Below are positions 651 to 16,258 of a DNA stretch of 64,000 bases, one piece after another. The notes beneath the pieces are model-generated. The model saw only the letters and a list, made by a program, of their open reading frames with translations, did not search any database and was not told the DNA's origin. The stretch is from contig JAXHNJ010000001.1 of the NCBI GenBank assembly GCA_034520665.1, positions 258,579 through 322,578 on the forward strand, in the 5' to 3' direction. The translations under genes and the position numbers were made by a program. The DNA comes from Patescibacteria group bacterium (GTDB taxonomy: Bacteria > Patescibacteriota > Patescibacteriia > JAXHNJ01). How positions within the stretch are numbered: the first letter of the stretch is position 1; each line of letters begins with the position of its first letter.

Positions 651-673
651 TTTTATAACTTAAACCAACTATT

Positions 674-1138: not shown

Positions 1139-1146
1139 AAATTACA

Positions 1147-1292: not shown

Positions 1293-1378
1293 ATAAATTT
1301 TGAAATAAGCCAAAAAGCCAATGAAGCAAAAAGCCCCATTCGATAAATTAATAAACTTTAATTATTTTTATAAATAAT

Positions 1379-1996: not shown

Positions 1997-2049
1997 GTCT
2001 TCTTGCTGTTTCTCTATGACGGCTTATTTCAAAACTCTGAAATTTTTCT

Positions 2050-2598
2050 TTGGAACGTTGCACTAAATTTCAGCCCTTCGGGGAATATAACAAGGATTTA
2101 GAAGTTTCGTTCGGTTTCACCTCACTACAACCAAATTTTGCTTCCTCTATTGGTAAAAATAAGGAAGTCGGCAAAACTTCTCATACACGCGAACGTTGGC
2201 TGACATTCATTTTTATCAATATGCAAACACGTGAAGAAACAAAATCTTTTCTCGAAAAAAAATATCCAGAAATTATGAATTCTACTGGTAAAAATTGGGA
2301 TGTAAAAGATGATAAACTAAAAGAGCGGGTATTAGAAAGGTTGACTGATTATTTTCACCCGATAATTGTCAAAAACTTAAAGTCCATTGAAAATACTTTA
2401 GGAAGAGTGAATCAGCGTCGCGAGAATTTTACATTCTTATTTATAGGCGCACTTTTAGGTGTCGTAGGTGGCTTAGTTGCAAATATATTGCATGATTTAC
2501 TAATAAGATTTTCACTAAAATATTATATTATTATCGCTTCAATTATTTTTTTAGCGGTACTTTTGTCTAGTCTTTTATATATTAACTATAAAAAATAA
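2050..2598 (+). CDS. hypothetical membrane protein (182 aa)
   Basis: Two C-terminal hydrophobic helices; no catalytic motif seen. Confidence 0.35.
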   Translation: MERCTKFQPFGEYNKDLEVSFGFTSLQPNFASSIGKNKEVGKTSHTRERWLTFIFINMQTREETKSFLEKKYPEIMNSTGKNWDVKDDKLKERVLERLTDYFHPIIVKNLKSIENTLGRVNQRRENFTFLFIGALLGVVGGLVANILHDLLIRFSLKYYIIIASIIFLAVLLSSLLYINYKK

Positions 2599-2674
2599 CA
2601 TGTCTATACAAAATAACAAAATATTGAATGAATTTCTGGAATATATTAAAAAAAAGTGAACGGCAGCTAACAGC

Positions 2675-2990
2675 GTGTATGAGGTTCAAGAAAAAGTGCG
2701 TTAATAATTTGAAAGAAAACGCTACGAGGGACGCTGCGCTTTCGCTCCACTCCGCTTCGCTCCGCAAAACATCAGATATAGGCAAACCTTGCGCCAGGCC
2801 TCATTTCTTACCAAGAGGATTTTCAGGATTTTTTGAGAAAAGGGGAGTAGGAGAAAAGGTTTTTTTATGGGTAAAAAAAATGGTAAACTATAAACAGTGT
2901 CGGATTATATAATGGTTTAATAAAACTTCGTATAATAAACAAATTTGAGGTGATTATACGAAATCAATTCGTATAATAACTAGTTGTACG
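2675..2990 (+). repeat. attC-like repeat (AACAGCGTGTATGAGGTTC ... CAGATATAGGCAAACC) fused to Rep-L copy 2
   Basis: Sequence identity to the other boundary repeats. The ORF-track CDS 2628..2912 lies inside this repeat and is judged spurious. Confidence 0.55.
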
Positions 2991-3009
2991 AAATTGTTCT
3001 AATTTTCTA

Positions 3010-3249
3010 GTGGTACCTATAGATTTTGATGTGTCAGTAAACAGATACCTGTCAATAGGGTATTTAGCAAAAAAAGAAAGTGCGGAGTTGAAACATTCGT
3101 TGTGGGCATTACAAAGTCCCGAAAACCTAAAAAAACATCATAAAGTTTTTGAGGAGAAATTTGAGTACTTCCGAAAAGTAGGACATAAGGCAAATGTTAA
3201 CGCGGTGAAAGAGTGGTGGGATCAAAAACTTAAGGAATTAAAAAATTAG
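3010..3249 (+). CDS. hypothetical small protein (79 aa, GTG start)
   Basis: ORF downstream of Rep-L copy 2. Confidence 0.3.
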   Translation: MVPIDFDVSVNRYLSIGYLAKKESAELKHSLWALQSPENLKKHHKVFEEKFEYFRKVGHKANVNAVKEWWDQKLKELKN

Positions 3250-3489
3250 AACAACATCGCACAACACCAAATATCTGGCTTGAAAATTTTTCAGTTATTA
3301 GAAAAAACAAGGAGTGAAAAATTTCCGCGCCTAAATTTCGCACTTTTCCGTTTAGTGGTAATTTAGAGTATAATTAATTTAACAATATAATCAGAATATC
3401 AAAGTTTTTAGCACATAAACCAAAGCGCGAAACTTCAGATATTCGGATACGTTATACGCAATTCAGAATTTTATTTTCAAACAATCACA

Positions 3490-3966
3490 ATGATAAAAAT
3501 AATATATGCAACAATTGAAGATTATGATGACTTTCTTGATGTATTCAAGGAGATTGAAGAATATCATAGAGTAAATGCTTCTTGGAAATTTCAAAAACCT
3601 AAACCTGAATTATTTCCAAGAGATTATTTTCATAAAGTAATTGAAGATGAAAATGGTATATTTTTTTTAGCCAAGGATAATACTAAAATTGTTGGTTATT
3701 TAACAGCTTTTGAAGAAAAATCTCCTGATAGGTCCATGTTAAAACTGAGAAAATATATACAGATAGATGATTTATCTGTAAGAAGCGATTATAGAAAAAA
3801 AGGTATCGGTACTTTACTAATGGATAAACTTGAAGAATTGGCTAAAAAAAATAAAATCTATGAAGTGGAGCTTAATGTATGGTGTTTTAACAAAGGTGCA
3901 ATAAAGTTTTATGAAAATAAAGGATATGAATCATTTACTCAGAAAATGAGGAAAGTTTTAAAATAA
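3490..3966 (+). CDS. GNAT family N-acetyltransferase
   Basis: Motif A (R/Q-x-x-G-x-G/A) seen as RKKGIGTLLM, and an FYENKGY C-terminal motif typical of the GNAT fold. Confidence 0.65.
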   Translation: MIKIIYATIEDYDDFLDVFKEIEEYHRVNASWKFQKPKPELFPRDYFHKVIEDENGIFFLAKDNTKIVGYLTAFEEKSPDRSMLKLRKYIQIDDLSVRSDYRKKGIGTLLMDKLEELAKKNKIYEVELNVWCFNKGAIKFYENKGYESFTQKMRKVLK

Positions 3967-4121
3967 AATTTTGAACTTCTCGCTATCGCTCCGTTCGGCT
4001 CGCTTAACAGAAGTATATGCGGTTTGCTCGTTGCCCTTTGCTTTCCCAAATTCTTCACCACGTTTGAAATTTACCTTAAGCCCGATATTAGATCTAATTT
4101 ACAAAACAATTTTTAAATTAT

Positions 4122-4952
4122 ATGGAAAAAAATCTAGAACAATCACAATCTACTAAAAAAATGGAAAAGCCGGAAGATTGGCTGCCAGGGGGGACTGAGC
4201 AAGAACAATATCTCAAAGAACATAAGGAATGGCGGGGTTTAGAAAAACGATTAGGGCAACCGAGGATATTAAATAATGTTTATTTCCCGGAAATTTTAGC
4301 TTGGATTCAAGAAGAATTTAAAGATAATCCTGATGCTTTTTCTTATTTCGAGGCAGGCTGTGGCCACGGAAATGATTTTCGAACCATAAGAAAAGAGCTT
4401 AAGGCTAGAGGCCGCTATCTCGGCGTTGATATGAGTAAGGCAGAAATCATTCACGGGATGAAATTTTATAAAGACGCGGAGGAAGCAAGAAAATTATTTG
4501 CTCAAGGTGATCTTCGTAATTTAAGACATGTTAATATTTGGGATAGGGGAAAAAGAGATTTTTCTCAACCTGTGGAAATTAAAGATGGCGAATTTGATCT
4601 TATCTATATGGAGGCGGTGTTACACGGACTTGGTTATAGTAAAAAAACCTTTCAAGAGAAAAAGGAATCAGCCCAACAGATGCTTAATGAATTATATCGT
4701 ATTTGTAAAGCTGGAGGAAAATTTTTTGGACGAGCCTCCATATTTGGCTCCACCATTACAAAAGAAAAACAATTTGAACTTCTGCGCAAGACAAATAATT
4801 GGCGCTTCATTCCTGAAGCTGAAGAATTTAAAGAAATACTTAAAAAAGCAGGGTTTACAAATATTAAAGGGGCATTGACTCCACATGAAAAAGCAAAAGA
4901 GGATCCAAATAAAAAAGATATTCTGCGATTTTCTTTTTTAGCTGAAAAATAA
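4122..4952 (+). CDS. class I SAM-dependent methyltransferase
   Basis: Motif I EAGCGHGND, then an acidic residue at the end of beta-2 (LGVDMS). Confidence 0.6.
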   Translation: MEKNLEQSQSTKKMEKPEDWLPGGTEQEQYLKEHKEWRGLEKRLGQPRILNNVYFPEILAWIQEEFKDNPDAFSYFEAGCGHGNDFRTIRKELKARGRYLGVDMSKAEIIHGMKFYKDAEEARKLFAQGDLRNLRHVNIWDRGKRDFSQPVEIKDGEFDLIYMEAVLHGLGYSKKTFQEKKESAQQMLNELYRICKAGGKFFGRASIFGSTITKEKQFELLRKTNNWRFIPEAEEFKEILKKAGFTNIKGALTPHEKAKEDPNKKDILRFSFLAEK

Positions 4953-4985
4953 TTTTTTCAGATTAAAAAATGTATTTTGCAAACA

Positions 4986-5090
4986 GTACATAACAAGGTA
5001 TATCTGGTTTCGCTTCTCCTAAGGTTGTCCCTTGATATAAATTTAATACTTCAGATATACGCGAACGTTAATTGCAATTTAGTTTAGGAC
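4986..5090 (+). repeat. attC-like boundary repeat (ATAACAAGGTATATCTGG ... CAGATATACGCGAACGTTAAT)
   Basis: Outer arms are reverse-complementary. An identical copy sits at 8345-8449 inside the segmental duplication. Confidence 0.55.
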
Positions 5091-5134
5091 TTTCTGACAT
5101 AAAATTTATATAATACATAACCCATTTTTTTCTT

Positions 5135-5608
5135 ATGAAGTTTAGAAAATTTAAGAAGAGTGATATTAGACAGATTGCAAAAATTAAGAATTCTGTTTTT
5201 AGTAGTTTCAATAAATCAGAATATTTTGAAAAAGGAACCGTTTCAAAATATTTAAATTACACCAATTCAAAAAAGTCAGACAAAGAACTCCTTGAAGCAT
5301 TTAAGATAACTAAGGATTCTATTTTTTATGTTGCTGAAGAAAATGATAAAATTTTCGGATATATCAAAGGAAGAAAAAATAGAATCGGGAATTTGTTTGT
5401 TCTTGGTCAAAACCATAAAAAAGGGATTGGTAGAAAATTAGTTAATTTATTTGAAAAAGAAGCAGAAAAACAGAACTCTAAAGAAATTAAGATTCACTCT
5501 TCAATTTATGCAGTTCCTTTCTATCAAAAAAGGGGTTATAAGAAAACTACTGGAATTAGAAATCTTCATGGCTTGAAGATTCAACCAATGAAAAAAGTCC
5601 TAAACTAG
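5135..5608 (+). CDS. GNAT family N-acetyltransferase (paralog 1 of 2)
   Basis: HKKGIGRKLV motif A. 98% identical to the ORF at 8494..8967. Confidence 0.65.
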   Translation: MKFRKFKKSDIRQIAKIKNSVFSSFNKSEYFEKGTVSKYLNYTNSKKSDKELLEAFKITKDSIFYVAEENDKIFGYIKGRKNRIGNLFVLGQNHKKGIGRKLVNLFEKEAEKQNSKEIKIHSSIYAVPFYQKRGYKKTTGIRNLHGLKIQPMKKVLN

Positions 5609-5993
5609 ACTTCTTCGAAATTTTTTCAGAATTCCTCGACCCCGCTGCGCTCTCGCCTATGGCTCGGGGTAATTAACAGGATTTTAACGGAAAAATACTC
5701 GGCTCGCATTTTCCCAAATCGCCTACGGCAAAACTTCTCTAAATCCTGAAGTTGTGCAAGACCCCATTTCTTGCCAAGAGGATTTTCAGGATTTTTTGAG
5801 AAAAGGGGAGTAGGGGAAGAGGTTTTTTATTGGTAAAAAAAATGGTAAACTATAGACAGTATCGGATTATATAATGGTTTAATAAAACTTCGTATAATAA
5901 CGAGTTAAGTGAAATTGAGAATTTGTCCTATGAGATTTAAATGGGCACGATTTTTTCCGAAAACTTTATATCACTACATACTTTTATTAATTT

Positions 5994-6470
5994 ATGATGG
6001 ACATAATCAAAATAAGCGAAGATTTCGCAAAAAAAGAATATGCAAAGCATGATGAACTTCACCAATGGAATCATGTTGAAGATGTGATGAATGTGGCTTT
6101 GAAATTATCCGAGTTTCATCCAGAAGCAAATTTAGAAATTTTAAAACTTGCTGTTATCTTTCATGATATTAGTTATGAACAATATGAAACTCATGTTGAA
6201 GAGTCCATGAAAGTAGCAGAAAAATTTCTAAAAGAGCAGGATTATCCGGAAGATAGAATCAAGAAAGTTTTGCAAGTGATGATTTCTCATTCTGGCCCTC
6301 ACAGAAGAAAACTCGGTGAAGCAAAAATGATTGAGGGAAAAATCATTTATGATTCTGATAAATTCCATCTTGCAAAAACTAGAGAGGGATTTGAAAAATA
6401 TTTTGATAGATTTTATCTGGATGAAACTCGTGATATGATTAAAAAAACGTGCCCTGAATTCTTTAAATAA
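5994..6470 (+). CDS. HD-domain phosphohydrolase
   Basis: H...HD motif (HDELHQWNHVED ... IFHDISY). Confidence 0.55.
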   Translation: MMDIIKISEDFAKKEYAKHDELHQWNHVEDVMNVALKLSEFHPEANLEILKLAVIFHDISYEQYETHVEESMKVAEKFLKEQDYPEDRIKKVLQVMISHSGPHRRKLGEAKMIEGKIIYDSDKFHLAKTREGFEKYFDRFYLDETRDMIKKTCPEFFK

Positions 6471-6708
6471 ATGTAAACTTGACGGACAAATTCTCAACTT
6501 GCTCACTATCGTTCGCACCACGCTGCGCTCTCACTTCGTTCGACCCTCATTTAACAAGGGATAAAAGGAAAATTGCTCGGCTCGCAATTTTCCCAAATTT
6601 TCTCCACTACGTTCTGAAAACTTCTTTTATCCCTGATGTTATATGAAATAAATTTTGGCGCGCTAGAAAAAAACCTTAATAAACAAATTCCCCCTAAGTA
6701 TTATTAAC

Positions 6709-7368
6709 ATGAAAAAATCTAAACTTCTCTGGTATATTTTAACAATAGTCCCAATCGCATTATTAATTCTTGGATATATTTTTCCCTCATCATTCTTTGG
6801 AAGTCAAGAGGCAATTAGAGATTTTGTTTCTCAATTTGGAATTTTTGCCCCTCTTGCCTTCATTGTGCTTCAAATCCTGCAAGTTGTAGTAACGCCCCTT
6901 AGTCATTATACTGTTTCAATAGCGGGCGGATTTATTTTTGGAACATGGCAAGGTTTTATTTATAATTGGATTGGTAGAGTAATTGGAACAGCAATCGCTT
7001 TTTATCTTGCTCGAATTTTTGGAAGAAAAATTATTAAGCATCTTGTTAAAAAAGAAACTATCCAAAAATACGATTATATATTTGAAAAAGGAAAACTCTT
7101 ACTGTTCTTAGCATATTTCTTGCCATTGTTCCCAGATGATGAACTTTCATATCTTGCAGGACTTTCAGCAATTAGTCCAAGAATCTTTTTACCTTTAATG
7201 GCGATTGGGCATATTAGTGGAAGTTTAAGTTTAGCTTACATCGGCAACGGGATACAATCTTTCAAAGAGCCGATGTTTATAATACTCTCATTAATAACTT
7301 TAATTGGGGGAATTTGGTTTGCATGGCATTATCAAAAAGTTAAAAATAATGCTAATACCAAAGTGTAA
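6709..7368 (+). CDS. DedA/TVP38/TMEM64 family membrane protein
   Basis: Multi-TM protein with a G-x-x-x-FG...F-x-P...S-x-AG-like signature (GGFIFG ... LAGLS). Confidence 0.6.
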   Translation: MKKSKLLWYILTIVPIALLILGYIFPSSFFGSQEAIRDFVSQFGIFAPLAFIVLQILQVVVTPLSHYTVSIAGGFIFGTWQGFIYNWIGRVIGTAIAFYLARIFGRKIIKHLVKKETIQKYDYIFEKGKLLLFLAYFLPLFPDDELSYLAGLSAISPRIFLPLMAIGHISGSLSLAYIGNGIQSFKEPMFIILSLITLIGGIWFAWHYQKVKNNANTKV

Positions 7369-7627
7369 GATGCGCGCCAAAATTTATTTCACAAAACGGG
7401 CGGGCAAGGAGTTAGAAGAACAAGCTAGAAAAAATCTTAAAAGAGAATTAGCAATGTTGTCGTAAAAATTTTTCTTAACATCAACTAATACTGTGTATCT
7501 GGTTCCACAAATGAGAAATAATTGATTATTTTTTACATTCTTGGTTGCCCTTTTACAATTTTATAAAAGAGAAAGGCCGAGTCCCGCAAATCTGCGAAAC
7601 CCGGCCGAATGGATGGGGGCGGGGCTT

Positions 7628-7798
7628 TCAATACCAGCCCGCGTCTCCTGCTTCCTTAATTTGCTGCGCCTTGGTCTTTACTTCCTGAAGAGCCTTAAGC
7701 ACCTTTGGGTCGTCCTTGTACTTCTCATCGAGTTGGTTGAGGAGATACAGGATTTCCCCTGCTGCCGTGGATGCTCCTACTCCGCTAATCATATTCAT
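7628..7798 (-). CDS. small hypothetical protein (56 aa) with strong Shine-Dalgarno sequence, on a GC-rich insert
   Basis: Minus-strand ORF MNMISGVGASTAAGEILYLLNQLDEKYKDDPKVLKALQEVKTKAQQIKEAGDAGWY, preceded by GGAGGTG. Local GC about 50% against about 30% in flanks. The overlapping + strand ORF 7541..7903 looks like a translation artefact. Confidence 0.35.
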   Translation of the reverse strand: MNMISGVGASTAAGEILYLLNQLDEKYKDDPKVLKALQEVKTKAQQIKEAGDAGWY

Positions 7799-8095
7799 TG
7801 CGCACCTCCAATGTTCACGACATATTATCCTAGCAGATTATGCCCTGCCTGTCAAGCTAACAAATCTTTAAAAATTGTAAAAATCCCTAAAGTTAGGGTA
7901 TAATAATAAAGAATTTCTCATTTGTTCCACCTAAATTCTCATTTCGTATTGTGCTGGCGCTCTGCGCAATTTTATCACCTACATACACTCGTGACTTCGC
8001 ATACGCATGTCTGTTAGATGAAATAATAAAAAAATTCTTAACTATTGATAAATAATAAAATTTAACAATAATATTAACACTAGCAATACAAACTT

Positions 8096-8311
8096 ATGAA
8101 AAATTTTGAAAAAAACATTGGCCAAGGAGAAAGTTTATTAGAATTAGCCGCAAAAAAACTTAATTTAGATCCAAAAAACACCTCGTTAAATGAAGTAGAG
8201 GCAGTTATGCTTGGATTGCCAAAAGAAAGTTCCGTTTATGAGGTTGAAAAAGCAAAAGAGGATCCAAATAAAAAAGATATTCTGCGATTTTCTTTTTTAG
8301 CTGAAAAATAA
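8096..8311 (+). CDS. hypothetical protein; the last 20 aa are identical to the C-terminus of the methyltransferase at 4122..4952 (chimeric ORF at a duplication junction)
   Basis: C-terminus KAKEDPNKKDILRFSFLAEK is shared. The duplication breakpoint falls inside the ORF. Confidence 0.3.
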   Translation: MKNFEKNIGQGESLLELAAKKLNLDPKNTSLNEVEAVMLGLPKESSVYEVEKAKEDPNKKDILRFSFLAEK

Positions 8312-8493
8312 TTTTTTCAGATTAAAAAATGTATTTTGCAAACAGTACATAACAAGGTATATCTGGTTTCGCTTCTCCTAAGGTTGTCCCTTGATATAAA
8401 TTTAATACTTCAGATATACGCGAACGTTAATTGCAATTTAGTTTAGGACTTTCTGACATAAAATTTATATAATACATAACCCATTTTTTTCTT

Positions 8494-8967
8494 ATGAAGT
8501 TTAGAAAATTTAAGAAGAGTGATATTAGACAGATTGCAAAAATTAAGAATTCTGTTTTTAGTAGTTTCAATAAATCAGAATATTTTGAAAAAGGAACCGT
8601 TTCAAAATATTTAAATTACACCAATCCAAAAAAGTCAGACAAAGAACTCCTTGAAGCATTTAAGATAACTAAGGATTCTATTTTTTATGTTGCTGAAGAA
8701 AATGATAAAATTTTCGGATATATCAAAGGAAGAAAAAATAGAATCGGGAATTTGTTTGTTCTTGGTCAAAACCATAAAAAAGGGATTGGTAGAAAATTAG
8801 TTGATTTATTTGAAAAAGAAGCAGAAAAACAGAACTCTAAAGAAATTAAGATTAACTCTTCAATTTATGCAGTTCCTTTCTATCAAAAAAGGGGTTATAA
8901 GAAAACTACTGGAATTAGAAATCTTCATGGCTTGAAGATTCAACCAATGAAAAAAGTCCTAAACTAA
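8494..8967 (+). CDS. GNAT family N-acetyltransferase (paralog 2 of 2)
   Basis: Differs from 5135..5608 by three substitutions (S45P, N104D, H130N). Confidence 0.65.
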   Translation: MKFRKFKKSDIRQIAKIKNSVFSSFNKSEYFEKGTVSKYLNYTNPKKSDKELLEAFKITKDSIFYVAEENDKIFGYIKGRKNRIGNLFVLGQNHKKGIGRKLVDLFEKEAEKQNSKEIKINSSIYAVPFYQKRGYKKTTGIRNLHGLKIQPMKKVLN

Positions 8968-9007
8968 ACTTCTTCGAAATTTTTTCAGAATTCCTCGACC
9001 CCGCTGC

Positions 9008-9084
9008 CTGCCCGCCATAGTCTACGGCATCAGGCCTTGGCTCGCCCGCCTGAGTTGCTCAGGCAAGTCGGGCGGCAGGCGGGC
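9008..9084. repeat. 77-bp GC-rich palindromic insertion (REP/MITE-like) present in only one copy of the duplicated repeat
   Basis: CTGCCCGCC...GCCTGAGTTGCTCAGGC...GGCAGGCGGGC has terminal and internal inverted repeats. The paralogous position 5647/5648 is uninterrupted. Confidence 0.6.
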
Positions 9085-9412
9085 GCTCTCGCCTATGGCT
9101 CGGGGTAATTAACAGGATTTTAACGGAAAAATACTCGGCTCGCATTTTCCCAAATCGCCTACGGCAAAACTTCTCTAAATCCTGAAGTTGTGCCAAACCC
9201 CATTTTTTGCCAAGAGGATTTTCAGGATTTTTTGAAACAAGGGAAGTAGGAGAAGAGGTTTTTTTATTGGTAAAAAAAATGGTAAACTATAGACAGTGTT
9301 GGATTAATATAATGGTTTAATAAAAATTCGCATAATAAACAAATTTGAGGTGATTATACGAAATCAATTCGTATAATAACGAGTTATCGGAAATAAAAAT
9401 AGTAAAATTTTT

Positions 9413-9973
9413 ATGGGTAATAAAAAAATCTTCACAATCAGCTCTGATTTTGAATTAATTAAAAAACCAAAATGGTTAGATGGCTTTCGTATTAAGCACG
9501 ATAAACCTTTTCCATATCACGTAACTTTAAAAACATGTACATACTTTGATATTGATAATTTTAAAAATTTAAAAAAAGACTTAAGTGGTATTGTTAAAAA
9601 ATATAGCGAGATCAAGGTTATATTTAACAAACTTTTTATAAGTCGCTCTTCAAAGGGCGAATGTATTATGATAAAAGCAGATAATAATAAAAAGCTAAAT
9701 GAACTCCAGAAGGAAATTGTGAAAAAGTTTTCAAAATATGGGAATTATATAGCGAAAAAATACGAAAAATTCGAGAAAAGTTTTATTCCCCATATTACTA
9801 TCGCGCGACATCTTTCATCAGAACAATTGATAATTGCAAAAAAGGATTTAGGGAAAAAACTATTTTGTGAAGCTGTAGTCAAAGGGCTTTCTTTAATGAT
9901 AGTGGAAAATAATACTGATGAAGAATGGTTAAACCACAACAATAAAAGTTATTACAAGTTACAGAACAAATAG
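9413..9973 (+). CDS. 2H phosphoesterase superfamily protein (LigT/2'-5' RNA ligase-like)
   Basis: Two H-x-T/S-x motifs (YHVTLK and PHITIA) about 90 aa apart. Confidence 0.55.
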   Translation: MGNKKIFTISSDFELIKKPKWLDGFRIKHDKPFPYHVTLKTCTYFDIDNFKNLKKDLSGIVKKYSEIKVIFNKLFISRSSKGECIMIKADNNKKLNELQKEIVKKFSKYGNYIAKKYEKFEKSFIPHITIARHLSSEQLIIAKKDLGKKLFCEAVVKGLSLMIVENNTDEEWLNHNNKSYYKLQNK

Positions 9974-10157
9974 AATTTTACTATTTTTACCTTCCGATAA
10001 CAGCGTGTATGCGGTTCGGACTTTCCCTGAAAACCCTCTCCCATATTTTTGCTCCCGTTGGTCGCAAAAACATCGCATACGCTGGAACGTTAAGTGAAAT
10101 TGCGGAGGGGCGCCTAATACGATACTTTTTATAAGTGAGTGAATTTACAATACTATT

Positions 10158-10832
10158 ATGACAACAAAACTTCGCGAACCAGATGAAGAAAATTATGTCT
10201 TTACCGAGGGTATTGATTATTCAAAAACAGAAAAAAAATTTATCTGGGGAACTGGTGATAAAGACACTCTGGAGCTTCTGAATGATATTAAAATTCGAGG
10301 CAAGTGGCTAAACCTTGCCGCTGGTGATGGACGTTACAATTTGAATTTGTTGGAAAAAGTTAATTCAGTTGTTGCTTCAGATATTGATGAAGGTGCGCTT
10401 GGCAAATTGAAACAAAACACACCTAACGAACTAAGAGAAAAACTACAAACAGAAATTTTTGATATAACTAAACCATTTCCATTTGAAGATGAATCATTTG
10501 ACGGTGTGTTTTGCACTGGGACATTACATCTTTTTCCAACTGAAATTTTGCAGCAAATTATTTTAGAGATTGATAGAATTCTAAAATCCAATGGCAAACT
10601 GATTATAGACTTTGCAACTGACATCAAACGTATTCTGCCAGATGGCAAACTTTATATCAGAAAATCTGAACCTCAATACACTGCCGAAGAAGCCGCAAAA
10701 TTTCTCAGAGAATTATTGCACAATTATCAAATTCAAATTGTAGAATCAGAAGTTCCAGAGGAAGAAATTAAGACGCGAGGTTTTGTTTATAGATTTAGTT
10801 GTAAATTCATTTTACTAACAGCAGATAAATAA
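10158..10832 (+). CDS. class I SAM-dependent methyltransferase
   Basis: Motif I LNLAAGDGRYN, then VVASDID (acidic residue at the end of beta-2). Confidence 0.6.
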   Translation: MTTKLREPDEENYVFTEGIDYSKTEKKFIWGTGDKDTLELLNDIKIRGKWLNLAAGDGRYNLNLLEKVNSVVASDIDEGALGKLKQNTPNELREKLQTEIFDITKPFPFEDESFDGVFCTGTLHLFPTEILQQIILEIDRILKSNGKLIIDFATDIKRILPDGKLYIRKSEPQYTAEEAAKFLRELLHNYQIQIVESEVPEEEIKTRGFVYRFSCKFILLTADK

Positions 10833-11172
10833 TGACGGCGACCCCCACAACTCTCGCCAGCCCTTCGGGACGTTGCACTAAATTTTTGCCCTTCGGGACA
10901 TATAACAAGGGATATGAGGTTACGAAGTTTTGCAGACTTCTTTACTCAAATTCGCCTACGGCGAACTTCTCATAAGCCCGATGTTAAATGAAATTTTGCC
11001 TTGAAATGTGAAGTGAAAAATATTCGTGCTATTAAAAAAAGATAGTTCGTAATTTCAAAATTTATTTTATTTATCGGCAAAACTTCACTTAACACTGTGT
11101 ATCTGGTTCCGTAAAAGAGAAAAATTAAATAATTCTCTATTTTTAAAAGCCTTTTTTCAATTTTTTTACAAA

Positions 11173-11200
11173 GAAAAAACCAGTTGTTAGGGACAACTGG
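11173..11200 (-). terminator. Rho-independent terminator for the minus-strand gene 11217..11591
   Basis: Minus strand reads CCAGTTGTCCCTAACAACTGG followed by a T-run: an 8-bp stem plus TTTTTTT. Confidence 0.55.
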
Positions 11201-11216
11201 AAAACCCTTATTTTGT

Positions 11217-11591
11217 TTAGAGGACTGCGTAGTACGGCATTCCGCCAGGCAGGGCTGACCACATGGCACGCGGCATAAGGCATTTGGCCTTGCCGATCGC
11301 GGTGCCGAGTTGAAAGAGCTGGTCCATGCGTTGGTGCAGATCTGTCCACTGATTGCCATGCTTGTCGTTACAGGCATTCAAAAAGGACGTGCCGCCACCA
11401 CCGGACATCTTGAACTCGTCGGGTAATTCATCCAGTATTTCCTCAATCTCGGCCTTATGGCTTTCCAGTCTGTCGGTATGAAAACCAACATTCTGGGTTA
11501 TACCCTCGGCTTTGACATAATTGTTGGTTTCCTCATCTTCTTTGAACAGACAGTCTATGAAGATTGCATTTACGCGTTCGGGATCAATCAT
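11217..11591 (-). CDS. hypothetical protein (124 aa), compositionally foreign (higher GC), minus strand
   Basis: ORF has its own terminator and sits inside a split boundary repeat. GC about 47%. No motif recognised. Confidence 0.45.
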   Translation of the reverse strand: MIDPERVNAIFIDCLFKEDEETNNYVKAEGITQNVGFHTDRLESHKAEIEEILDELPDEFKMSGGGGTSFLNACNDKHGNQWTDLHQRMDQLFQLGTAIGKAKCLMPRAMWSALPGGMPYYAVL

Positions 11592-11907
11592 CTTCGTTCC
11601 TCCTTTGTTAAGGTTATCAGCAAAATTACTGATTATTAAGTATGGCAGATTTCTTATTTCATGTCAAGCTTGGCGACCAAAAAATTGAAAAAAGGGCTTT
11701 AATAGCTTTAATATAAGGTAAATTATTATTTTTTCTCTTTTACTTCACCCAAATTGTTCGTTCCTCGCAAATTCTCATAATCCTAACGTTATGTGAAATA
11801 GCCAGAAATTTCTTAATTATTTTTTAAGATTTTTTTGGCAATTTATTTCACGTCGAACATAACTTGTGGTATAATTTAGTCAGTTTAATTAATTAACCAA
11901 TAAAACT

Positions 11908-12207
11908 ATGTCAGAAAAATTCGAAGGCAATTTGCCACCTCAAGAGCAAAAAGAAGGTTATTCAGCAGATTTCGTAGCCAAGGTAAAAGAAGTATTTCCA
12001 GATTGGGATCGCATGAATCAAGCGCTGGAATCTGGTAGTGAGTGGGTCGGTCGTTATCTTGATGATTCGCGCGGTTTTTCAATGAAGCCAGATGAAATTG
12101 TCCAAGCTCTTGAAGGCGGCGATCAAGAAAAAGTTCTTGAGGCGGCAAGGAAAGCCAAAAAGATTGATGAGCTTTATAAAGAATGGTCTGAATCACGGGA
12201 AAAATAA
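11908..12207 (+). CDS. hypothetical acidic protein (99 aa)
   Basis: Preceded by an extended -10 promoter: TTCACG, 17 nt, TGgTATAAT at about 11850-11878. The + strand frame looks more protein-like than the overlapping minus-strand frame. Confidence 0.4.
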   Translation: MSEKFEGNLPPQEQKEGYSADFVAKVKEVFPDWDRMNQALESGSEWVGRYLDDSRGFSMKPDEIVQALEGGDQEKVLEAARKAKKIDELYKEWSESREK

Positions 12208-12256
12208 ATTGCCAAAAAATAATAATAAGGAATAGAAATTTCTGTCAACATCACAT

Positions 12257-12400
12257 AACAGCGTGTATCTGGTTCGGCAAATTTGACACAATTAGATTCA
12301 AAAGGAATGTCAAATCTACCTCTCCCAAATTTCGCAAAAAAATACTATTTTTAAAGGAATTTTTGCGAAACTTCAGATACACGCAAACGTTATACGCAAT
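12257..12400 (+). repeat. attC-like boundary repeat, the best-preserved copy
   Basis: Outer arms ATAACAGCGTGTATCTGGTTCGG ... CTTCAGATACACGCAAACGTTATACG. Two inner inverted repeats: AAATTTGACA/TGTCAAAT and TTTCGCAAAAA/TTTTTGCGAAA. Confidence 0.6.
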
Positions 12401-12589
12401 TCAAAAAATATTTTTTTTATAAGGAATTTTGACAGGCTTTTTAAAAAGGGGAATAAATTTGTTTTTTTATTAATTAGAAAGGGGTAAATGGTGTTTTCTC
12501 CGCTATCGCTCCGAAAACGATTTATTATTGGAAAAAGACAAAAAGTTTTATATACTTAAATTAGTTTTAACTTATTAAAGGATTAAAAT

Positions 12590-15337
12590 ATGAGTGAAGA
12601 ATTACTACAAAGAGGACTAACTAAAAAAGGAATTACATTCATAGATTATGAATTTTTTCCGTTACACTCAACGACCTTAAAACAATATAAAAAGTTAAAA
12701 ATAATTCCTAATAAAGATTATGATAAATATGAAATTAGAAAACCTGACGGGCTTTTAGTAGACAGAGGAAATAAATCAAAGCCGAAAGTTGTTACAGTTT
12801 TGGAATACAAAAAACCTTCTGAATTTCAAACAGATAAACAAAAAAGAGAAGCGATTGAACAATGCAATGATTTGTGTCAAGAGCTTGAAGCAAAAATAGG
12901 AATTATTACAGACGGAATTGTTACTTATTGGATAAATCCAAACCACGCAGATAAAAATAACAAATACAAAGATAGAACAACTGGGAAGAAGCGAAGTTTT
13001 TCTTATATCTTAAATGATGATAAGCAAAGATTACAAAAGAAGTTTTTCATTAAAGAGAACGATAAAAAAGATATTTCAAAATTGAATAATGAAACAAGAG
13101 AAACTTACAGATTAGTTAAAAGAATTTTAGAAGAAACAAATAATAAAAATTCTGTTTTGAAAGCAACAGAAAAAACAGACCCAACCCCTCTCGCGAGAAG
13201 TGTTTGGCAAAGTATTTACATAAGCACAAAAGATAATCCAACAGCTTGTCTTTATAATGTTGTTGAGATTTTTATCTTTAAGTTTCTGAGTGATTTAGGA
13301 GTTTTAAAAGGAGTTAATAGTTTTGATTATTTATTGAAACTTTACAAAACAGAAGATAGTAAAACAGTTTTAAAACACTATGCTAAAACTTGCAGAGAAG
13401 AAATAAGAAATTTATTTGAAGCGGGAGATGACGGGACAACAATAATTAATGGAACTATTTTTGTAAATAAAGACGGAAGCCCTGTTTTATCACAAGCGAC
13501 TTTATTTAAAGACACTATTGAAAAATATGCAAAGTTTGGAGATTTAAAAAATATTGACAAGGGATTTAAAACAAAATTGTTCGAAACATTTTTGAAGCAG
13601 AGTAAGGACAAAAGTAAGTTAGGACAATTTTTTACACCGAGAAAAGTTGTTAAGGGAATTGTTGAAATGGCTGATGTGGATAAAGCGGAATTTATATGCG
13701 ACCCATTTTGCGGTGTTGGTGGTTTTCTTTTAGAGCCATTTCAAATATCTCAAAATTTGAAAAATAAATTTATTCCAAAGAATAATGAAATAAATCCGCC
13801 TGTAAAACTTTTAGGATATGATACAGGAAGAGAAGATAACGACGAACAAAAGAGGACTATTATTTTAGCAAAGGCGAATATGCTTATTTATTTGTCTGAT
13901 TTAGTCGAAAAAAATTCTACATTAAACGAGGAATTTTCAAAAATAATAAATAATACTTTCCACTTTTTATCGGATAGTAATCTTGGAACACTAAAAGAAA
14001 CTGAAAGATTTGAAAGAAATGAGGATAAGCCTGATTTAATTATTACCAATCCTCCATATATCACAAGCGGAGTAACTACAATAAGAAAACAGATTGAGGA
14101 AGATGGTTTAACTGATTATTATAAAAATAGTGGAAAGGGAATGGAAGGTTTATGCTTAAAATGGATAATAAAAAATTTGAAAAGAAAAGGACAAGCATTT
14201 ATTGTTTTGCCAGATAGTATTTTTAATGTTTTTGCCAATAAAGTTTTAAGAGATGAAATAAAAAAGAATTGTTATATTAATTGTATTATATCTTTACCCG
14301 CAAAAACTTTCTTTAATACTCCAAAGAAAACTTATGTTTTAGGAATTACAAAAAAAGATTGTGATGAAGATGAATGTGAAAATCTTAAACAGGATTTTCC
14401 TGTATTCACTTATTTAGTTTCTAATATCGGGGAAACATTAGATATTAACCGATTCGAAATTCCTGAAAATGATTTGGATAATGCGAAGAATTTGTTTAAT
14501 CAATTTAAAGGAAGTCCAAATAATTTTCAAACAGATGACTCACGATGTAAATTACAACCTATTGAAAAATTTGAAAATGAGAAATATTGGATAATTGATA
14601 AATGGTGGAGTAAAAAAGAAAAAATAGAAATTGAAATTGAAGAAGAAGATGAAAGTTTAACTATTGATGAATTTAAAGATCAAATTGAAAAAACAAAGGA
14701 AAAATTAGGAGAATTAGAATGGGTGGCAGATAAAACAAAAGAGAGAAAATATAAAACCAAAATGATGTATGTAACGGATGATAAGATAAATAAAAATAGG
14801 AAAGAAGAAGGAATTTTTGAAGCAGAAAAAGGAAATGCAAAATACACAAAAAAATATATGCACGACCATAAAGGTGAGTTTCCTGTTTATTCTTCTCAAA
14901 CTTCTAATTTAGGCGAGATAGGAAGCATAGACACCTATGATTATGAAGAAGAATGTTTTACTTGGACAACCGATGGAACTTATGTTGGAACTGTTTTTTA
15001 TAGAAATGGTAAGTTTTCAATAACCACTCATTGCGGAATTTTAAGAGTTAAACCAGAATACAAAGATAAAGTTGATTTTGAATATTTGAATTTTATCTTA
15101 AATCAAACACTCCCTAATTATAAATTAGGTGAAGGTTCTAATAAAAGATTAGGGACTGAAAGAATGAAGGAAATTCAAATAGAAATCCCAATAAACAAAA
15201 ACGGAGAATTTGACTTAGATAAACAAAAAGAAATTGCTGAAAAGTATAAGAAAATAGAAGAAATCAAGGAAAAACTTAAAGACAATTATGAAAAGATGAT
15301 AAATTCAAAAGTTCAGATTATTGAAGCAGAAGAATAA
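12590..15337 (+). CDS. Type IIG (MmeI-like) single-chain restriction-modification enzyme: N-terminal PD-(D/E)xK nuclease, gamma-class N6-adenine methyltransferase, C-terminal target-recognition region
   Basis: N-terminal KPDGLLVD...VLEYKK matches PD...ExK. Methyltransferase motif I FFTPRKVV...DPFCGVGGFL. Motif IV ITNPPY. The 915-aa length matches MmeI architecture. Confidence 0.7.
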   Translation: MSEELLQRGLTKKGITFIDYEFFPLHSTTLKQYKKLKIIPNKDYDKYEIRKPDGLLVDRGNKSKPKVVTVLEYKKPSEFQTDKQKREAIEQCNDLCQELEAKIGIITDGIVTYWINPNHADKNNKYKDRTTGKKRSFSYILNDDKQRLQKKFFIKENDKKDISKLNNETRETYRLVKRILEETNNKNSVLKATEKTDPTPLARSVWQSIYISTKDNPTACLYNVVEIFIFKFLSDLGVLKGVNSFDYLLKLYKTEDSKTVLKHYAKTCREEIRNLFEAGDDGTTIINGTIFVNKDGSPVLSQATLFKDTIEKYAKFGDLKNIDKGFKTKLFETFLKQSKDKSKLGQFFTPRKVVKGIVEMADVDKAEFICDPFCGVGGFLLEPFQISQNLKNKFIPKNNEINPPVKLLGYDTGREDNDEQKRTIILAKANMLIYLSDLVEKNSTLNEEFSKIINNTFHFLSDSNLGTLKETERFERNEDKPDLIITNPPYITSGVTTIRKQIEEDGLTDYYKNSGKGMEGLCLKWIIKNLKRKGQAFIVLPDSIFNVFANKVLRDEIKKNCYINCIISLPAKTFFNTPKKTYVLGITKKDCDEDECENLKQDFPVFTYLVSNIGETLDINRFEIPENDLDNAKNLFNQFKGSPNNFQTDDSRCKLQPIEKFENEKYWIIDKWWSKKEKIEIEIEEEDESLTIDEFKDQIEKTKEKLGELEWVADKTKERKYKTKMMYVTDDKINKNRKEEGIFEAEKGNAKYTKKYMHDHKGEFPVYSSQTSNLGEIGSIDTYDYEEECFTWTTDGTYVGTVFYRNGKFSITTHCGILRVKPEYKDKVDFEYLNFILNQTLPNYKLGEGSNKRLGTERMKEIQIEIPINKNGEFDLDKQKEIAEKYKKIEEIKEKLKDNYEKMINSKVQIIEAEE

Positions 15338-15625
15338 ACTTTTGAATAAGGAGTTTTGAAAAATGGAATTCACCCCTAACCCCCGCCCGCCTCGCTACGC
15401 GAAGCGTTGCGGGCAGGCCTCTGCCCAAAATTCAAAACGGGAAAAATCAAATTTATAAGAATTAAAGAAAGTCTATCATGAAGAATAAGAACGAAAAATA
15501 TTTTTTGAACTCACTCCGCTTTGCTCCGCAAAACATCAAATATAGGCAAACCTTGTGCCAGACCTCATTTCTTGTCAAGAGGATTTCCAGGACTTTTTAA
15601 GAAAATGAAATTAATTTATTAAAAT

Positions 15626-16258
15626 ATGATCCTAAAAATATTATACAATAATAGGGCTAAAGAAGGTTTTAAAGAAGGTTGGGGATTTTCTTGCTTGATT
15701 GAATCTATTAAGGAAAATAAGAAAATCTTGTTTGACACTGGGGCTGACTTTGAAACTCTTAGTTTTAACGCTCAAAAACTAGGGGTAAATTTTAAAAATA
15801 TTGACAAGGTAGTTATTTCCCATGACCATGATGACCACACCGGCGGCTTGGCAGGAGTTTTAAAGGAAAATAATAAGGTAAAAGTTATCTGGCCGAAAAA
15901 TGAAAATAGTTTTAGAATTATTAGCGGTATTTTTTCAACCGGCTCTTTGAAAGCAGCCATAGACTTAAAAGAGCAGTCTTTGTTTTTGGCAACAAAGAAA
16001 GGTTTAGTCATTATAGTCGGTTGTTCTCATCCCGGAGTGGATAAAATTCTTCAAAGAGTAAAAGAGGTTAGGTCTTTAAAAAATAATAAAAAGATTTACG
16101 CTATTATTGGTGGTTTTCACGGCTTTAATAAATTAGATGAATTAGAAGGAATTGAAGTTATTGGCGCTTGCCATTGTACGTCACATAAACAAGAAATTAA
16201 GAAGAAATTTCCTGATCAGTTTAAAAAAATAAGAGCCGGTGATATAATAAAATTATAA
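15626..16258 (+). CDS. metallo-beta-lactamase-fold hydrolase
   Basis: HxHxDH motif (ISHDHDDHTGG), and downstream His and Asp residues (GFHG). Confidence 0.6.
   Translation: MILKILYNNRAKEGFKEGWGFSCLIESIKENKKILFDTGADFETLSFNAQKLGVNFKNIDKVVISHDHDDHTGGLAGVLKENNKVKVIWPKNENSFRIISGIFSTGSLKAAIDLKEQSLFLATKKGLVIIVGCSHPGVDKILQRVKEVRSLKNNKKIYAIIGGFHGFNKLDELEGIEVIGACHCTSHKQEIKKKFPDQFKKIRAGDIIKL

What the first reader, a model, noticed from the sequence alone, without database searches (positions are those of the whole stretch)
12590..15337. MmeI-like Type IIG restriction-modification enzyme carried as a 2.7-kb cassette
A 915-aa single polypeptide carries a PD-(D/E)xK nuclease motif (KPDGLLVD...VLEYKK), then gamma-class N6-adenine methyltransferase motifs (DPFCGVGGFL, NPPY), then a long C-terminal region. 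MmeI itself is 919 aa with the same order. Boundary-repeat sequence flanks the gene on both sides (12257-12520 and 15345-15600). A defence gene therefore appears to be mobilised by the cassette system, which is uncommon for integron cargo of this size.
Basis: partly seen in the sequence, partly recalled or inferred. Interest (0 to 1): 0.55.

Follow-up and report, generated by a model that had tools for sequence, protein, structure and literature searches.

The report
Restriction-modification enzyme in integron-type cassette
A candidate-phyla-radiation bacterium carries a single-protein restriction-modification enzyme of the BcgI/HaeIV type, not the MmeI type, as the last gene cassette of an integron-like array. 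The short control sequences around the gene are the same ones found around more than a hundred unrelated restriction-modification genes in environmental DNA.

Summary
The 915-aa ORF (12590-15337, +) is real. It has an N-terminal PD-x18-ExK nuclease domain (D53, E72, K74 conserved across the family). This is followed by an HsdM-type gamma N6-adenine methyltransferase (DPFCGVGGF, NPPY) and one HsdS-type target-recognition domain between two long helices.

It belongs to the Type IIG/IIC class but not to the MmeI family. No MmeI domains are found. Relatives 72-77% identical are two-subunit BcgI/BsaXI-type systems, and others carry two recognition domains like AloI. The R~M~one-TRD layout matches HaeIV.

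The cassette reading holds. A canonical, well-folding attC site (12253-12395) precedes the gene. In a second Patescibacteria genome (L037), a homologous gene with the same 5' and 3' non-coding ends lies between two intact attC sites, with neighbouring cassettes in a different order. In this window the 3' attC has decayed: there is no left half, and CTT replaces the crossover GTT. The cassette is therefore probably stranded.

The closest coding relatives (88% nt, ORF only) are in DPANN archaea and virus-like contigs.

Unexpectedly, the cassette's 5' leader and 3' trailer recur in 105 metagenome contigs. There they bracket mostly unrelated restriction-modification genes, often next to a Xer-like recombinase.

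The parts
12253..12395 (+). Canonical attC site. It ends the preceding cassette. Its R' core (GTTATAC, 12389-12395) marks the start of the RM cassette. Boxes: R'' ACATAAC 12253-12259, L'' 12260-12272, L' 12374-12384.
   Evidence: Read directly from the sequence. The bottom strand folds at -27.2 kcal/mol, z = -5.47. It is one of about 14 such sites, all on the + strand of 1-12395.
12390..15552 (+). The RM cassette, 3163 bp, measured from the crossover position in R' to the equivalent position in the degenerate downstream R'.
   Evidence: Homology with the L037 cassette ends is. G+C is 28.3%, against 34% for the rest of the window.
12396..12589 (+). Conserved cassette leader (5' UTR). Core motif TTAGAAAGGGGTAAATGGTGTTTTCTCCGCT at 12474-12504. 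Inverted repeat GTTTTC (12493-12498) / GAAAAC (12513-12518). Promoter-like TTGGAA-17-TATACT at 12528-12556.
   Evidence: Conserved with L037. The exact core pattern is found in 105 metagenome contigs, with consensus over 86 unique copies. The promoter-like site is a weak consensus match only. There is no Rfam match.
12590..15337 (+). RM enzyme gene, 915 aa (NCBI MDZ7798258.1, annotated 'N-6 DNA methylase').
12590..13084 (+). N-terminal PD-x18-ExK nuclease domain (aa 1 to about 165). Catalytic candidates are D53 (12746-12748), E72 (12803-12805) and K74 (12809-12811).
   Evidence: AF2 model of aa 1-175 has pLDDT 95.2. Foldseek top matches are BpuSI (E = 0.013, probability 0.97), then EcoRI, Cas4, HsdR, DrdV and TnsA; none reaches E < 1e-3. 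The candidate residues are at least 90% conserved. The L037 homologue gives a weak HSDR_N_2 hit at 1.4e-4.
13577..14677 (+). Gamma-class N6-adenine DNA methyltransferase domain, HsdM type (aa 330-696). Motif I DPFCGVGGFL at 13700-13729. Motif IV NPPY at 14048-14059.
   Evidence: Pfam PF02384 at 5.6e-28. PADLOC MTase_I at 1.5e-30. PDB HsdM chains are hit.
14798..15280 (+). Single HsdS-type target-recognition domain (aa 737-897). It is flanked by long helices at aa 692-717 and 876-905.
   Evidence: Pfam PF01420 at 6.7e-18. Secondary structure comes from the AF2 model. It is 35% identical to TRD2 of the separate S subunit in L016.
15348..15376 (+). Conserved cassette trailer core: AAGGAGTTTTG (15348-15358), 9 nt (15359-15367), then ATTCACCCC (15368-15376).
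   Evidence: Conserved with L037. It recurs downstream of leaders in metagenome loci and is followed about 110 nt later by an attC left box.
15474..15558 (+). Decayed 3' attC. The left half is unrecognisable (about 15474-15508). The right half is kept (15532-15558), with CTTGTGC (15552-15558) where GTTRRRY is expected.
   Evidence: The alignment to the intact L037 attC is. It does not fold better than shuffles. 15512-15605 is 90% identical to 2748-2841, which has the same C-for-G variant.
15559..15605 (+). Truncated copy (about 45 nt) of a roughly 200-nt element that heads four other cassettes in the array. The attC array ends here.
   Evidence: Repeat families D2, D4 and D6 and the intergenic sequences. 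Downstream genes are MBL-fold, ZIP and UPF0182, with no attC boxes.

Best explanation
The gene encodes a self-contained restriction-modification enzyme of the HsdM/HsdS-derived Type IIG/IIC group (the BcgI/BsaXI, AloI and HaeIV lineage). Its layout is R~gammaM~one TRD.

Shown:
- the domain order;
- intact methyltransferase motifs;
- a conserved PD-x18-ExK triad in a confidently modelled nuclease-like fold;
- close kinship with two-subunit (RM + S) and two-TRD versions.

Inferred mechanism:
- The single TRD, with its two flanking helices, pairs with that of a second molecule, as half-size HsdS proteins do.
- The homodimer reads a symmetric bipartite site and methylates one adenine in each half.
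- On unmodified DNA it cuts at a fixed distance on both sides, as HaeIV does.
- A monomer reading a short asymmetric site and cutting on one side is the alternative.

Cassette status:
- The gene sits in an integron-type cassette. The order is attC, conserved leader with its own promoter-like region, ORF, conserved trailer, attC.
- It is the last unit of an array of about 14 cassettes in a Patescibacteria genome.
- Its 3' attC has decayed, so this copy can probably no longer be excised.
- The coding region was exchanged recently with DPANN archaea and their viruses, where it travels beside a DDE transposase instead.
For: Enzyme:
- Pfam N6_Mtase plus Methylase_S; PADLOC MTase_I plus Specificity_I.
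- AF2 full-length model has pLDDT 84.7. Foldseek hits include an M-S fusion (7eew), BpuSI aligned across both whole chains at low TM-score (TMq 0.30, rmsd 24 A, so the domain order matches but there is no rigid-body fit), and BsaXI.
- The profile search ranks HsdM and BsaXI far above DrdV.
- The N-terminal model has pLDDT 95, and PD-(D/E)xK nucleases head its match list.
- D53, E72 and K74 are conserved.
- Relatives of about 710 aa are followed by a 358-369 aa Methylase_S gene.
- The 1100-aa relative has two TRDs.
- The single-TRD form is common at 50-92% identity.
- The HaeIV layout is listed as 2R~gammaM~[GAY] in PMC3874165.

Cassette:
- About 12-13 attC half-boxes lie on the + strand of 1-15700, against 1-3 in the other 48 kb.
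- The upstream attC folds with z = -5.5.
- In L037 the homologous gene lies between two intact attC sites (z about -3.8). Leader and trailer are conserved, and the window's preceding cassette follows the gene there.

Exchange between domains:
- 88% nt identity confined to 12593-15335.
- The matching contigs carry TFIIB and ribosomal protein S8e, or terminase and portal genes.
- A Woesearchaeota copy is 93% identical and there is a Pacearchaeota cluster member.
Against: - No activity data exist, and REBASE could not be consulted.
- The nuclease fold match is weak (best E = 0.013; none below 1e-3).
- Dimerisation and two-sided cutting are inferred from architecture only.
- The 3' site is not a foldable attC and lacks the GTT crossover triplet. 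The gene could therefore have reached this spot by another route.
- No integrase is in the window, and the upstream contig could not be retrieved.
- The recombinases next to related cassettes fall below the integron-integrase cut-off.
Confidence: 0.75

Rival explanations
1. It is an MmeI-like Type IIG (IIL) enzyme. A monomer reads a continuous asymmetric site, methylates one strand and cuts 20/18 downstream.
For: The overall order nuclease-methyltransferase-TRD and the length are the same. The MmeI-family enzyme DrdV appears among the structural matches at rank 48 and at E = 0.39 for the N-terminal domain.
Against: No MmeI-family Pfam domain is hit at E <= 1. The profile E-value to DrdV is 0.0097, against 4e-20 for HsdM and 2.5e-14 for BsaXI, and MmeI is not hit at all. 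The TRD is HsdS-type. The closest relatives have a separate two-TRD S subunit.
Confidence: 0.04
2. It is a monomeric Type IIG enzyme of the BpuSI/Eco57I style. One TRD reads a short asymmetric site and cleavage is on one side. Because only one strand is methylated, a partner methyltransferase would usually be needed.
For: BpuSI is the second-ranked full-length match (after the M-S fusion 7eew) and the best match to the N-terminal domain. There is only one TRD per chain. Precomputed weak Eco57I (PF07669) hits are recorded on close homologues.
Against: No companion methyltransferase gene is in the cassette. The TRD is flanked by two long helices, as in dimerising half-S proteins. The family is continuous with BcgI-type two-subunit systems at 72-77% identity. 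BpuSI was not found by sequence.
Confidence: 0.25
3. The gene is not integron cargo. It was dropped at the edge of the array by a transposase or by illegitimate recombination, and the flanking repeats are incidental.
For: There is no foldable 3' attC, and CTT replaces GTT. In archaeal and viral relatives the gene sits beside a DDE_Tnp_1 transposase with no attC boxes. The cassette is large for an integron, and in V. cholerae a cassette with attC sites 4 kb apart was not recovered (10.64898/2026.03.17.712381).
Against: No transposase lies near it in the window. The leader begins exactly at the R' core. Leader and trailer are shared with L037, where both attC sites are intact, and with about 100 metagenome cassettes.
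Confidence: 0.1
4. It is a methyltransferase only. The N-terminal domain is an inactive relic, and the protein is an orphan or epigenetic methylase.
For: NCBI annotates it simply as 'N-6 DNA methylase'. No Pfam family covers aa 1-250. The fold matches are weak.
Against: The PD...ExK triad is kept in at least 90% of relatives, down to about 35-50% identity. The domain is confidently folded. The L037 homologue touches HSDR_N_2.
Confidence: 0.08

Closest known systems
HaeIV (Haemophilus aegyptius), a single-chain Type IIG/IIB enzyme, listed as 2R~gammaM~[GAY] in Loenen et al. 2014 (PMC3874165)
   Same: One polypeptide with an N-terminal PD-(D/E)xK nuclease, a gamma N6-adenine methyltransferase and one TRD. 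No accessory methyltransferase is present.
   Different: Homodimer action, a symmetric site and two-sided cutting are assumed for the window protein, not shown.
BcgI / BsaXI two-subunit Type IIB systems (RM subunit plus S subunit; BsaXI structures 8w0p/8w2p)
   Same: Same RM core. Relatives 72-77% identical to aa 1-710 are followed by a separate two-TRD S gene. BsaXI RM is hit at 2.5e-14 by the family profile.
   Different: Here the specificity module is fused to the RM chain and has one TRD instead of two.
AloI / CjeI / TstI single-chain Type IIB enzymes (R~gammaM~TRD1~TRD2)
   Same: A fused R-M-S chain. The L037 cassette homologue (1100 aa, 44% identical) has exactly this two-TRD form.
   Different: The window protein lacks the second TRD.
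MmeI family (MmeI, NmeAIII, DrdV)
   Same: The same gross order of nuclease, methyltransferase and TRD, and a similar length.
   Different: A different methyltransferase and TRD lineage. No MmeI Pfam domains are found, and profile similarity is marginal.
Integron gene cassettes that carry defence genes (XbaI RM cassette, BRiCs, archaeal integron RM cassettes)
   Same: A defence gene bounded by attC sites in a one-directional cassette array (PMC10661359; 10.1101/2024.07.02.601719; PMC9668308).
   Different: The host is a Patescibacteria bacterium. The cassette is 3.2 kb and has a conserved leader and trailer shared with many unrelated RM cassettes. The neighbouring recombinases in related loci are Xer-like and fall below the integron-integrase cut-off. 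The window copy's 3' attC is dead.

Membership tests
MmeI-family Type IIG (IIL) enzymes | MmeI-specific domain set (Pfam MmeI_N, MmeI_hel, MmeI_Mtase, MmeI_TRD, MmeI_C) or clear sequence kinship to MmeI, NmeAIII or DrdV | tested here: not met
   Pfam at E <= 1 returns only N6_Mtase, Methylase_S and UPF0020. The family profile scores DrdV at E = 0.0097 and does not hit MmeI.
MmeI-family Type IIG (IIL) enzymes | Continuous asymmetric site, one-strand methylation, cleavage about 20/18 downstream | not testable with these tools
   This needs methylome or cleavage mapping.
Type IIG/IIC (combined R-M in one chain) | Gamma N6-adenine methyltransferase with motif I (D/E/S)xFxGxG before motif IV NPPY | tested here: met
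   DPFCGVGGFL at aa 371-380 and NPPY at aa 487-490. PF02384 at 5.6e-28.
Type IIG/IIC (combined R-M in one chain) | N-terminal PD-(D/E)xK cleavage domain of about 200 aa | tested here: inconclusive
   The PD-x18-ExK triad is present and at least 90% conserved. The model has pLDDT 95. Top fold matches are PD-(D/E)xK nucleases, but the best E is 0.013. No Pfam hit was found on the window protein; the L037 homologue gives HSDR_N_2 at 1.4e-4.
BcgI-like Type IIB | HsdM-like RM subunit working with an HsdS-like specificity module | tested here: met
   PF02384 plus PF01420 in one chain. Close relatives have the S module as a separate gene.
BcgI-like Type IIB | Bipartite site, cleavage on both sides | not testable with these tools
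   Biochemistry is needed. With one TRD this would require dimerisation.
Integron gene cassette | Bounded on both sides by attC sites: imperfect inverted repeats R''-L''...L'-R', a GTT crossover triplet, and a foldable bottom strand | tested here: inconclusive
   The 5' side is met (12253-12395, z = -5.5). The 3' side is not met in the window (half-site only, CTT, no fold). The homologous L037 cassette meets it on both sides.
Integron gene cassette | Member of a co-oriented array; the same cassettes appear in different orders in related genomes | tested here: met
   About 14 attC sites lie on the + strand of 1-12395. L037 has the window's 11785-11917 cassette after, not before, the RM cassette (88% identity).
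Integron (platform) | IntI integrase with the IntI-specific insertion, plus attI and Pc, next to the array | tested here: inconclusive
   No tyrosine recombinase is in the window, and the upstream contig was not retrievable. In related loci a divergent recombinase lies 156-700 nt from the leader. It scores 208-231 bits on TIGR02249 (cut-off 265) in two stretches, which suggests the middle of the profile is unmatched. Several copies exceed the cut-off of the XerA/integron-integrase model NF040815, at up to 244 bits against 220.

The most novel reading that the evidence does not exclude
The RM gene sits in a standard 'chassis'. This is a roughly 190-nt leader that starts exactly at the attC crossover, plus a short trailer placed about 110 nt before the next attC.

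In candidate-phyla-radiation-type metagenomes the same chassis carries more than a hundred different cargoes of 0.9-8.4 kb. About 58% of these open with unrelated DNA methyltransferases or restriction enzymes, and one carries what looks like a whole Type I system (hsdM, hsdS and a large putative hsdR, assigned from cluster membership and gene sizes only). About a quarter of the copies lie directly beside a divergent Xer-like recombinase that lacks the integron-integrase insertion.

If this is real, it would be an undescribed integron-like system specialised for autonomous expression and exchange of restriction-modification modules. It may use a different class of recombinase. The leader may be an exapted fossil attC.
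Probability: 0.4. Interest if true: 0.8.

Novelty: new variant of a known kind. Interest (0 to 1): 0.55.

Why it matters
The enzyme itself is an ordinary member of a widespread family, and restriction-modification cassettes in integrons are already known. Three points go beyond that.

1. It documents an integron-type cassette array in a Patescibacteria genome. The literature held here says nothing about integrons in this group.

2. The same coding sequence (88% nt identity) circulates in DPANN archaea and virus-like contigs. This is a concrete case of recent gene sharing between bacteria, archaea and viruses in which a cassette array is one of the vehicles.

3. The cassette carries a conserved leader and trailer shared with many unrelated restriction-modification genes. 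That points to a portable expression and exchange module for defence genes. It could explain how large, position-independent cassettes work in arrays far from the integron promoter. It also gives a simple sequence handle for mining new restriction-modification systems from metagenomes.

Tried and rejected
Retrieving sequence upstream of the window to look for intI
- Exact-protein look-ups of the first ORFs failed or returned only a 1.5-kb contig.
- The genome-contig scan found no copy of this MAG.
- The RM protein itself returned only a 6-kb Logan contig of the same locus.

Scans that gave nothing useful
- A strict RYYYAAC/GTTRRRY scan found nothing, and a loose version was swamped by noise. 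It was replaced by lineage-specific half-box patterns.
- Foldseek on the whole model was dominated by the methyltransferase domain, so the N-terminal domain was modelled and searched separately.
- The sigma-70 and terminator scan of the cassette was not above shuffles (22 found against 16.4 expected; no terminators).
- Rfam gave no match for the window or for the leader.

Ideas tested and dropped
- The 168-aa ORF after the archaeal homologue is not a second TRD.
- Other candidate-phyla loci carrying RM homologues showed only background matches to the attC patterns; only L037 was real.
- A leader peptide starting at the GTG inside the leader was considered from reading the sequences. It was rejected because the hairpin loop varies by one nucleotide between copies, which shifts the frame.
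- No 'empty' leader-trailer unit shorter than 0.9 kb was found.
Full report
**What is at the coordinates**

The ORF 12590..15337 (+) is real and encodes 915 aa. The exact protein is in NCBI as MDZ7798258.1, 'N-6 DNA methylase', from a Patescibacteria-group MAG contig of 455,760 bp. Other window proteins map to the same contig. The rest of the window is bacterial: histidine kinase, DinB, UPF0182, glycolytic genes.

- KPDGLLVD, aa 51-58
- VLEYKK, aa 70-75
- DPFCGVGGFL, aa 371-380
- NPPY, aa 487-490

**What the protein is**

Domain and sequence searches:
- Pfam gives N6_Mtase (PF02384, aa 330-696, 5.6e-28) and one Methylase_S domain (PF01420, aa 737-897, 6.7e-18). No MmeI-family domain appears, even at E <= 1.
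- PADLOC calls it Type I methyltransferase plus Type I specificity subunit.
- Sequence hits among solved structures are HsdM proteins only.
- A profile of 42 homologues scores HsdM chains at up to 4e-20. A Vibrio M-S fusion (7eew) matches across both the methyltransferase and the TRD. The Type IIB enzyme BsaXI scores 2.5e-14. The MmeI-family enzyme DrdV scores only 0.0097, and MmeI is not hit.

Structure prediction:
- The full-length AlphaFold model is good (pLDDT 84.7).
- Its Foldseek matches include 7eew, BpuSI aligned across both whole chains (low TM-score, no rigid-body fit) and BsaXI.
- The N-terminal 175 residues, modelled alone, reach pLDDT 95.2 with the alpha-beta-beta-beta-alpha-beta core expected of PD-(D/E)xK nucleases.
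- The fold search on this domain is weak but coherent. BpuSI's nuclease domain comes first (E = 0.013, probability 0.97). EcoRI, two Cas4 proteins, HsdR nuclease domains, DrdV and TnsA follow. Nothing falls below 1e-3.
- P52, D53, E72 and K74 (PD-x18-ExK) are at least 90% conserved in the family.
- The L037 homologue touches Pfam HSDR_N_2 at 1.4e-4.
- On this basis I take the nuclease as probable, not proven.

**Which known group it belongs to**

The homologue search shows one large family in three forms:
- About 900 aa with one TRD, like the window protein. This form is common at 50-92% identity.
- About 710 aa with no TRD.
- About 1080-1100 aa.

The 710-aa forms are 72-77% identical over the shared part. 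They are followed, with overlapping stop and start codons, by a separate 358-369 aa Methylase_S gene. This is the BcgI/BsaXI arrangement. The window TRD is 35% identical to the second TRD of one such S protein. The 1100-aa form in L037 has two TRDs, as in AloI and CjeI.

In the scheme of Loenen et al. (PMC3874165), the window protein is R~gammaM~[one TRD]. That is the layout given for HaeIV, which is thought to act as a homodimer on a symmetric bipartite site and to cut on both sides. The TRD here is flanked by two long helices (aa 692-717 and 876-905), like the dimerising half-size HsdS proteins. This is the basis for preferring the dimer model. It is an inference.

The family is widespread in bacteria and archaea, including cultured strains such as Mongoliibacter ruber, Rhodanobacter, Streptomyces and Rhodobacter capsulatus. 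The enzyme is therefore ordinary of its kind. 'MmeI-like' is wrong as a family assignment, and the predicted 20/18 cut has no support.

**Is it a cassette?**

Positions 1-15600 are an array of small co-oriented genes: NUDIX, GNAT, methyltransferases, a serine hydrolase and others. They are separated by sites of the form xxTAAC-L''...L'-GTTRRRY. With lineage-specific patterns, 12 left boxes and 13 right boxes fall on the + strand of 1-15700. The other 48 kb holds only 1 and 3.

Upstream side. The site just upstream of the RM gene (12253-12395) is the best in the array. Its bottom strand folds at -27.2 kcal/mol, z = -5.5.

Downstream side. Only a right half survives (15532-15558), with CTTGTGC where GTTRRRY is expected. 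There is no left box after 12256. The region folds no better than shuffles. GTT is the one conserved sequence feature of attC sites (10.64898/2026.03.17.712381).

Comparison with L037. What settles the matter is a 7.1-kb contig from another Patescibacteria MAG.
- There a homologous RM gene (1100 aa, 44% identical) and a 502-aa RNase_H_2-family gene lie between two complete attC sites of the same type. Both sites fold with z about -3.8.
- The 5' non-coding region (window 12456-12589) is conserved between the two loci. So is the sequence just after the stop codon.
- After its 3' attC, L037 continues with the cassette that precedes the RM cassette in the window (88% identity to 11785-11917). The cassette order therefore differs.

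I conclude that the window gene is a genuine cassette of 3163 bp (12390-15552). It is the last in the array, and its 3' attC has decayed.

No integrase is in the window. The contig upstream could not be retrieved. By window content alone this is an attC array without a known integrase.

**Where the coding sequence came from**

The closest relatives (88-92% aa identity) are in two settings. Some are on contigs with TFIIB and ribosomal protein S8e, that is, archaeal. Others are on virus-like contigs of about 37.5 kb with terminase and portal genes. In both settings the gene lies beside a DDE_Tnp_1 transposase and one or two small ORFs, and there are no attC boxes.

Named relatives include Woesearchaeota (93% over aa 2-709) and Pacearchaeota.

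DNA identity with the window is 88% and stops at the ORF ends (12593-15335). The gene keeps 27-29% G+C in nearly all hosts examined (33% in L016), whatever the host G+C. This points to recent exchange between a bacterium, DPANN archaea and their viruses. The ORF has been placed into different vehicles in each.

**An unplanned finding: the leader and the trailer**

The leader. The conserved core of the 5' UTR (TTAGAAAGGGGNANANGGTGTTTTCTCCGCT, window 12474-12504) was used as an exact pattern. It matched 105 metagenome contigs from more than 50 datasets.
- In 86 unique copies, conservation runs from an attC R' core to about 75 nt past the motif start. The R' end comes in two 5' variants (41 and 56 copies).
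- The first ORF starts 48-74 nt after the motif in most cases.

The cargo. The 69 non-redundant first ORFs are dominated by unrelated DNA methyltransferases and restriction enzymes, roughly 58% in all:

| Pfam family | First ORFs |
|---|---|
| N6_N4_Mtase | 11 |
| N6_Mtase | 8 |
| C5 DNA_methylase | 5 |
| D12-class methyltransferase | 4 |
| EcoRI_methylase | 2 |
| ResIII / HsdR | 4 |
| GmrSD | 2 |
| Mrr | 2 |
| MTES_1575 | 2 |

Non-defence cargo includes a probable metal-transporting P-type ATPase (judged from its sequence only) and a membrane protein with VTT (DedA-type) and PAP2 domains.

The trailer. A conserved trailer (AAGGAGTTTTG, 8-12 nt, ATTCACCCC; window 15348-15376) lies from 2 nt before to 145 nt after the last stop codon. 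It sits about 110 nt before the next attC left box. Leader-to-trailer distances are 0.9-8.4 kb, median 3.8 kb. One example (L108) looks like a complete Type I system. Its first gene clusters with HsdM, and the hsdS and hsdR assignments rest on gene sizes only.

The neighbouring recombinase. Of 59 leaders with at least 1.1 kb of upstream sequence, 16 have a divergent tyrosine recombinase starting 156-700 nt away. This is the geometry of an integron platform.
- These proteins score 208-231 bits on the integron-integrase model TIGR02249 (cut-off 265).
- They match it in two stretches, which suggests the middle of the profile is unmatched. From my own knowledge, that is where the IntI-specific insertion lies.
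- Several pass the XerA/'integron integrase' model NF040815.

Other checks on the leader. It has no Rfam match. Its centre resembles the central hairpin of this attC family, so it may be a fossil attC. This is a lead only.

These results were only partly followed up, and they depend on an exact-pattern search seeded from one cassette.

**Comparison with what is known, and verdict**

Defence genes, including RM systems, are established integron cargo: the XbaI cassette and general enrichment (PMC10661359), BRiCs, and 8.3% of annotated archaeal cassette proteins (PMC9668308). The enzyme family is common.

What is less usual:
- the host group; no paper in the held library discusses integrons in Patescibacteria;
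- the near-identity with archaeal and viral copies;
- the shared leader/trailer chassis, with Xer-like recombinases nearby.

I rate the finding as a new variant of a known kind, of moderate interest. The side observation is the part most worth a dedicated study.

Noticed in passing
window 12396-12589 and 15348-15376; loci L101-L205: The cassette's 5' leader and 3' trailer are conserved in 105 metagenome contigs from more than 50 datasets. They bracket cargoes of 0.9-8.4 kb. About 58% of the first genes are unrelated DNA methyltransferases or restriction enzymes.
   Followed up: partly
L108 2315-3115, L169 3487-4299, L152, L165, L187 and 11 others: A divergent tyrosine recombinase starts 156-700 nt from the leader in 16 of 59 loci that have enough upstream sequence. 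It scores below the integron-integrase cut-off (208-231 bits against 265), and the match is split into two stretches. Several copies pass the XerA/integron-integrase model.
   Followed up: partly
window 466-648, 2796-2996, 5780-5990, 9214-9396; truncated copy at 15559-15605: A different conserved element of about 200 nt follows the attC and heads four small cassettes (NUDIX, a 79-aa ORF, a 158-aa ORF, a 2'-5' RNA ligase-like gene). It contains a promoter-like TTGGTA...TATAAA and a TTCGTATAAT/ATTATACGAA hairpin.
   Followed up: no
window 7486-8045 and 11090-11795: Two near-identical orphan attC left boxes (CTAATACTGTGTATCTGG and CTTAACACTGTGTATCTGG) are each followed by sequence apparently coding on the minus strand. 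Only several hundred nt later comes a non-complementary right box. The ORF 11217-11591 (-) has 50% G+C and no Pfam hit.
   Followed up: no
window 4886-5185 = 8245-8544; ORFs 5135-5608 and 8494-8967: A GNAT-type cassette and its upstream attC are duplicated. 300 nt are 100% identical, and the tail of the 276-aa methyltransferase is also repeated at 8096-8311.
   Followed up: no
window 12593-15335 versus L001-L006, L008-L015, L021: The RM ORF is 88% identical at the DNA level to copies in DPANN-type archaeal contigs and in virus-like contigs of about 37.5 kb. Homology stops at the ORF ends. There the gene lies beside a DDE_Tnp_1 transposase and small ORFs, which in L016 are MazE-like and HTH proteins.
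   Followed up: partly
L037 5250-6758: In the intact homologous cassette the RM gene is followed, 2 nt after its stop, by a 502-aa RNase_H_2 / DUF2779 gene. This gene is absent from the window and may be an accessory of the system.
   Followed up: no
window 31214-32122: Four copies of a 147-149-nt repeat carry a G+C-rich palindrome (GCCCGATCCTCAGATCGGGC...). Three are tandem and one lies 415 nt further on.
   Followed up: no
window 32842-33182: The start of the dinB (DNA polymerase IV) gene and its upstream region are present three times, at a spacing of about 124 nt, ahead of the full gene at 33125-34330.
   Followed up: no
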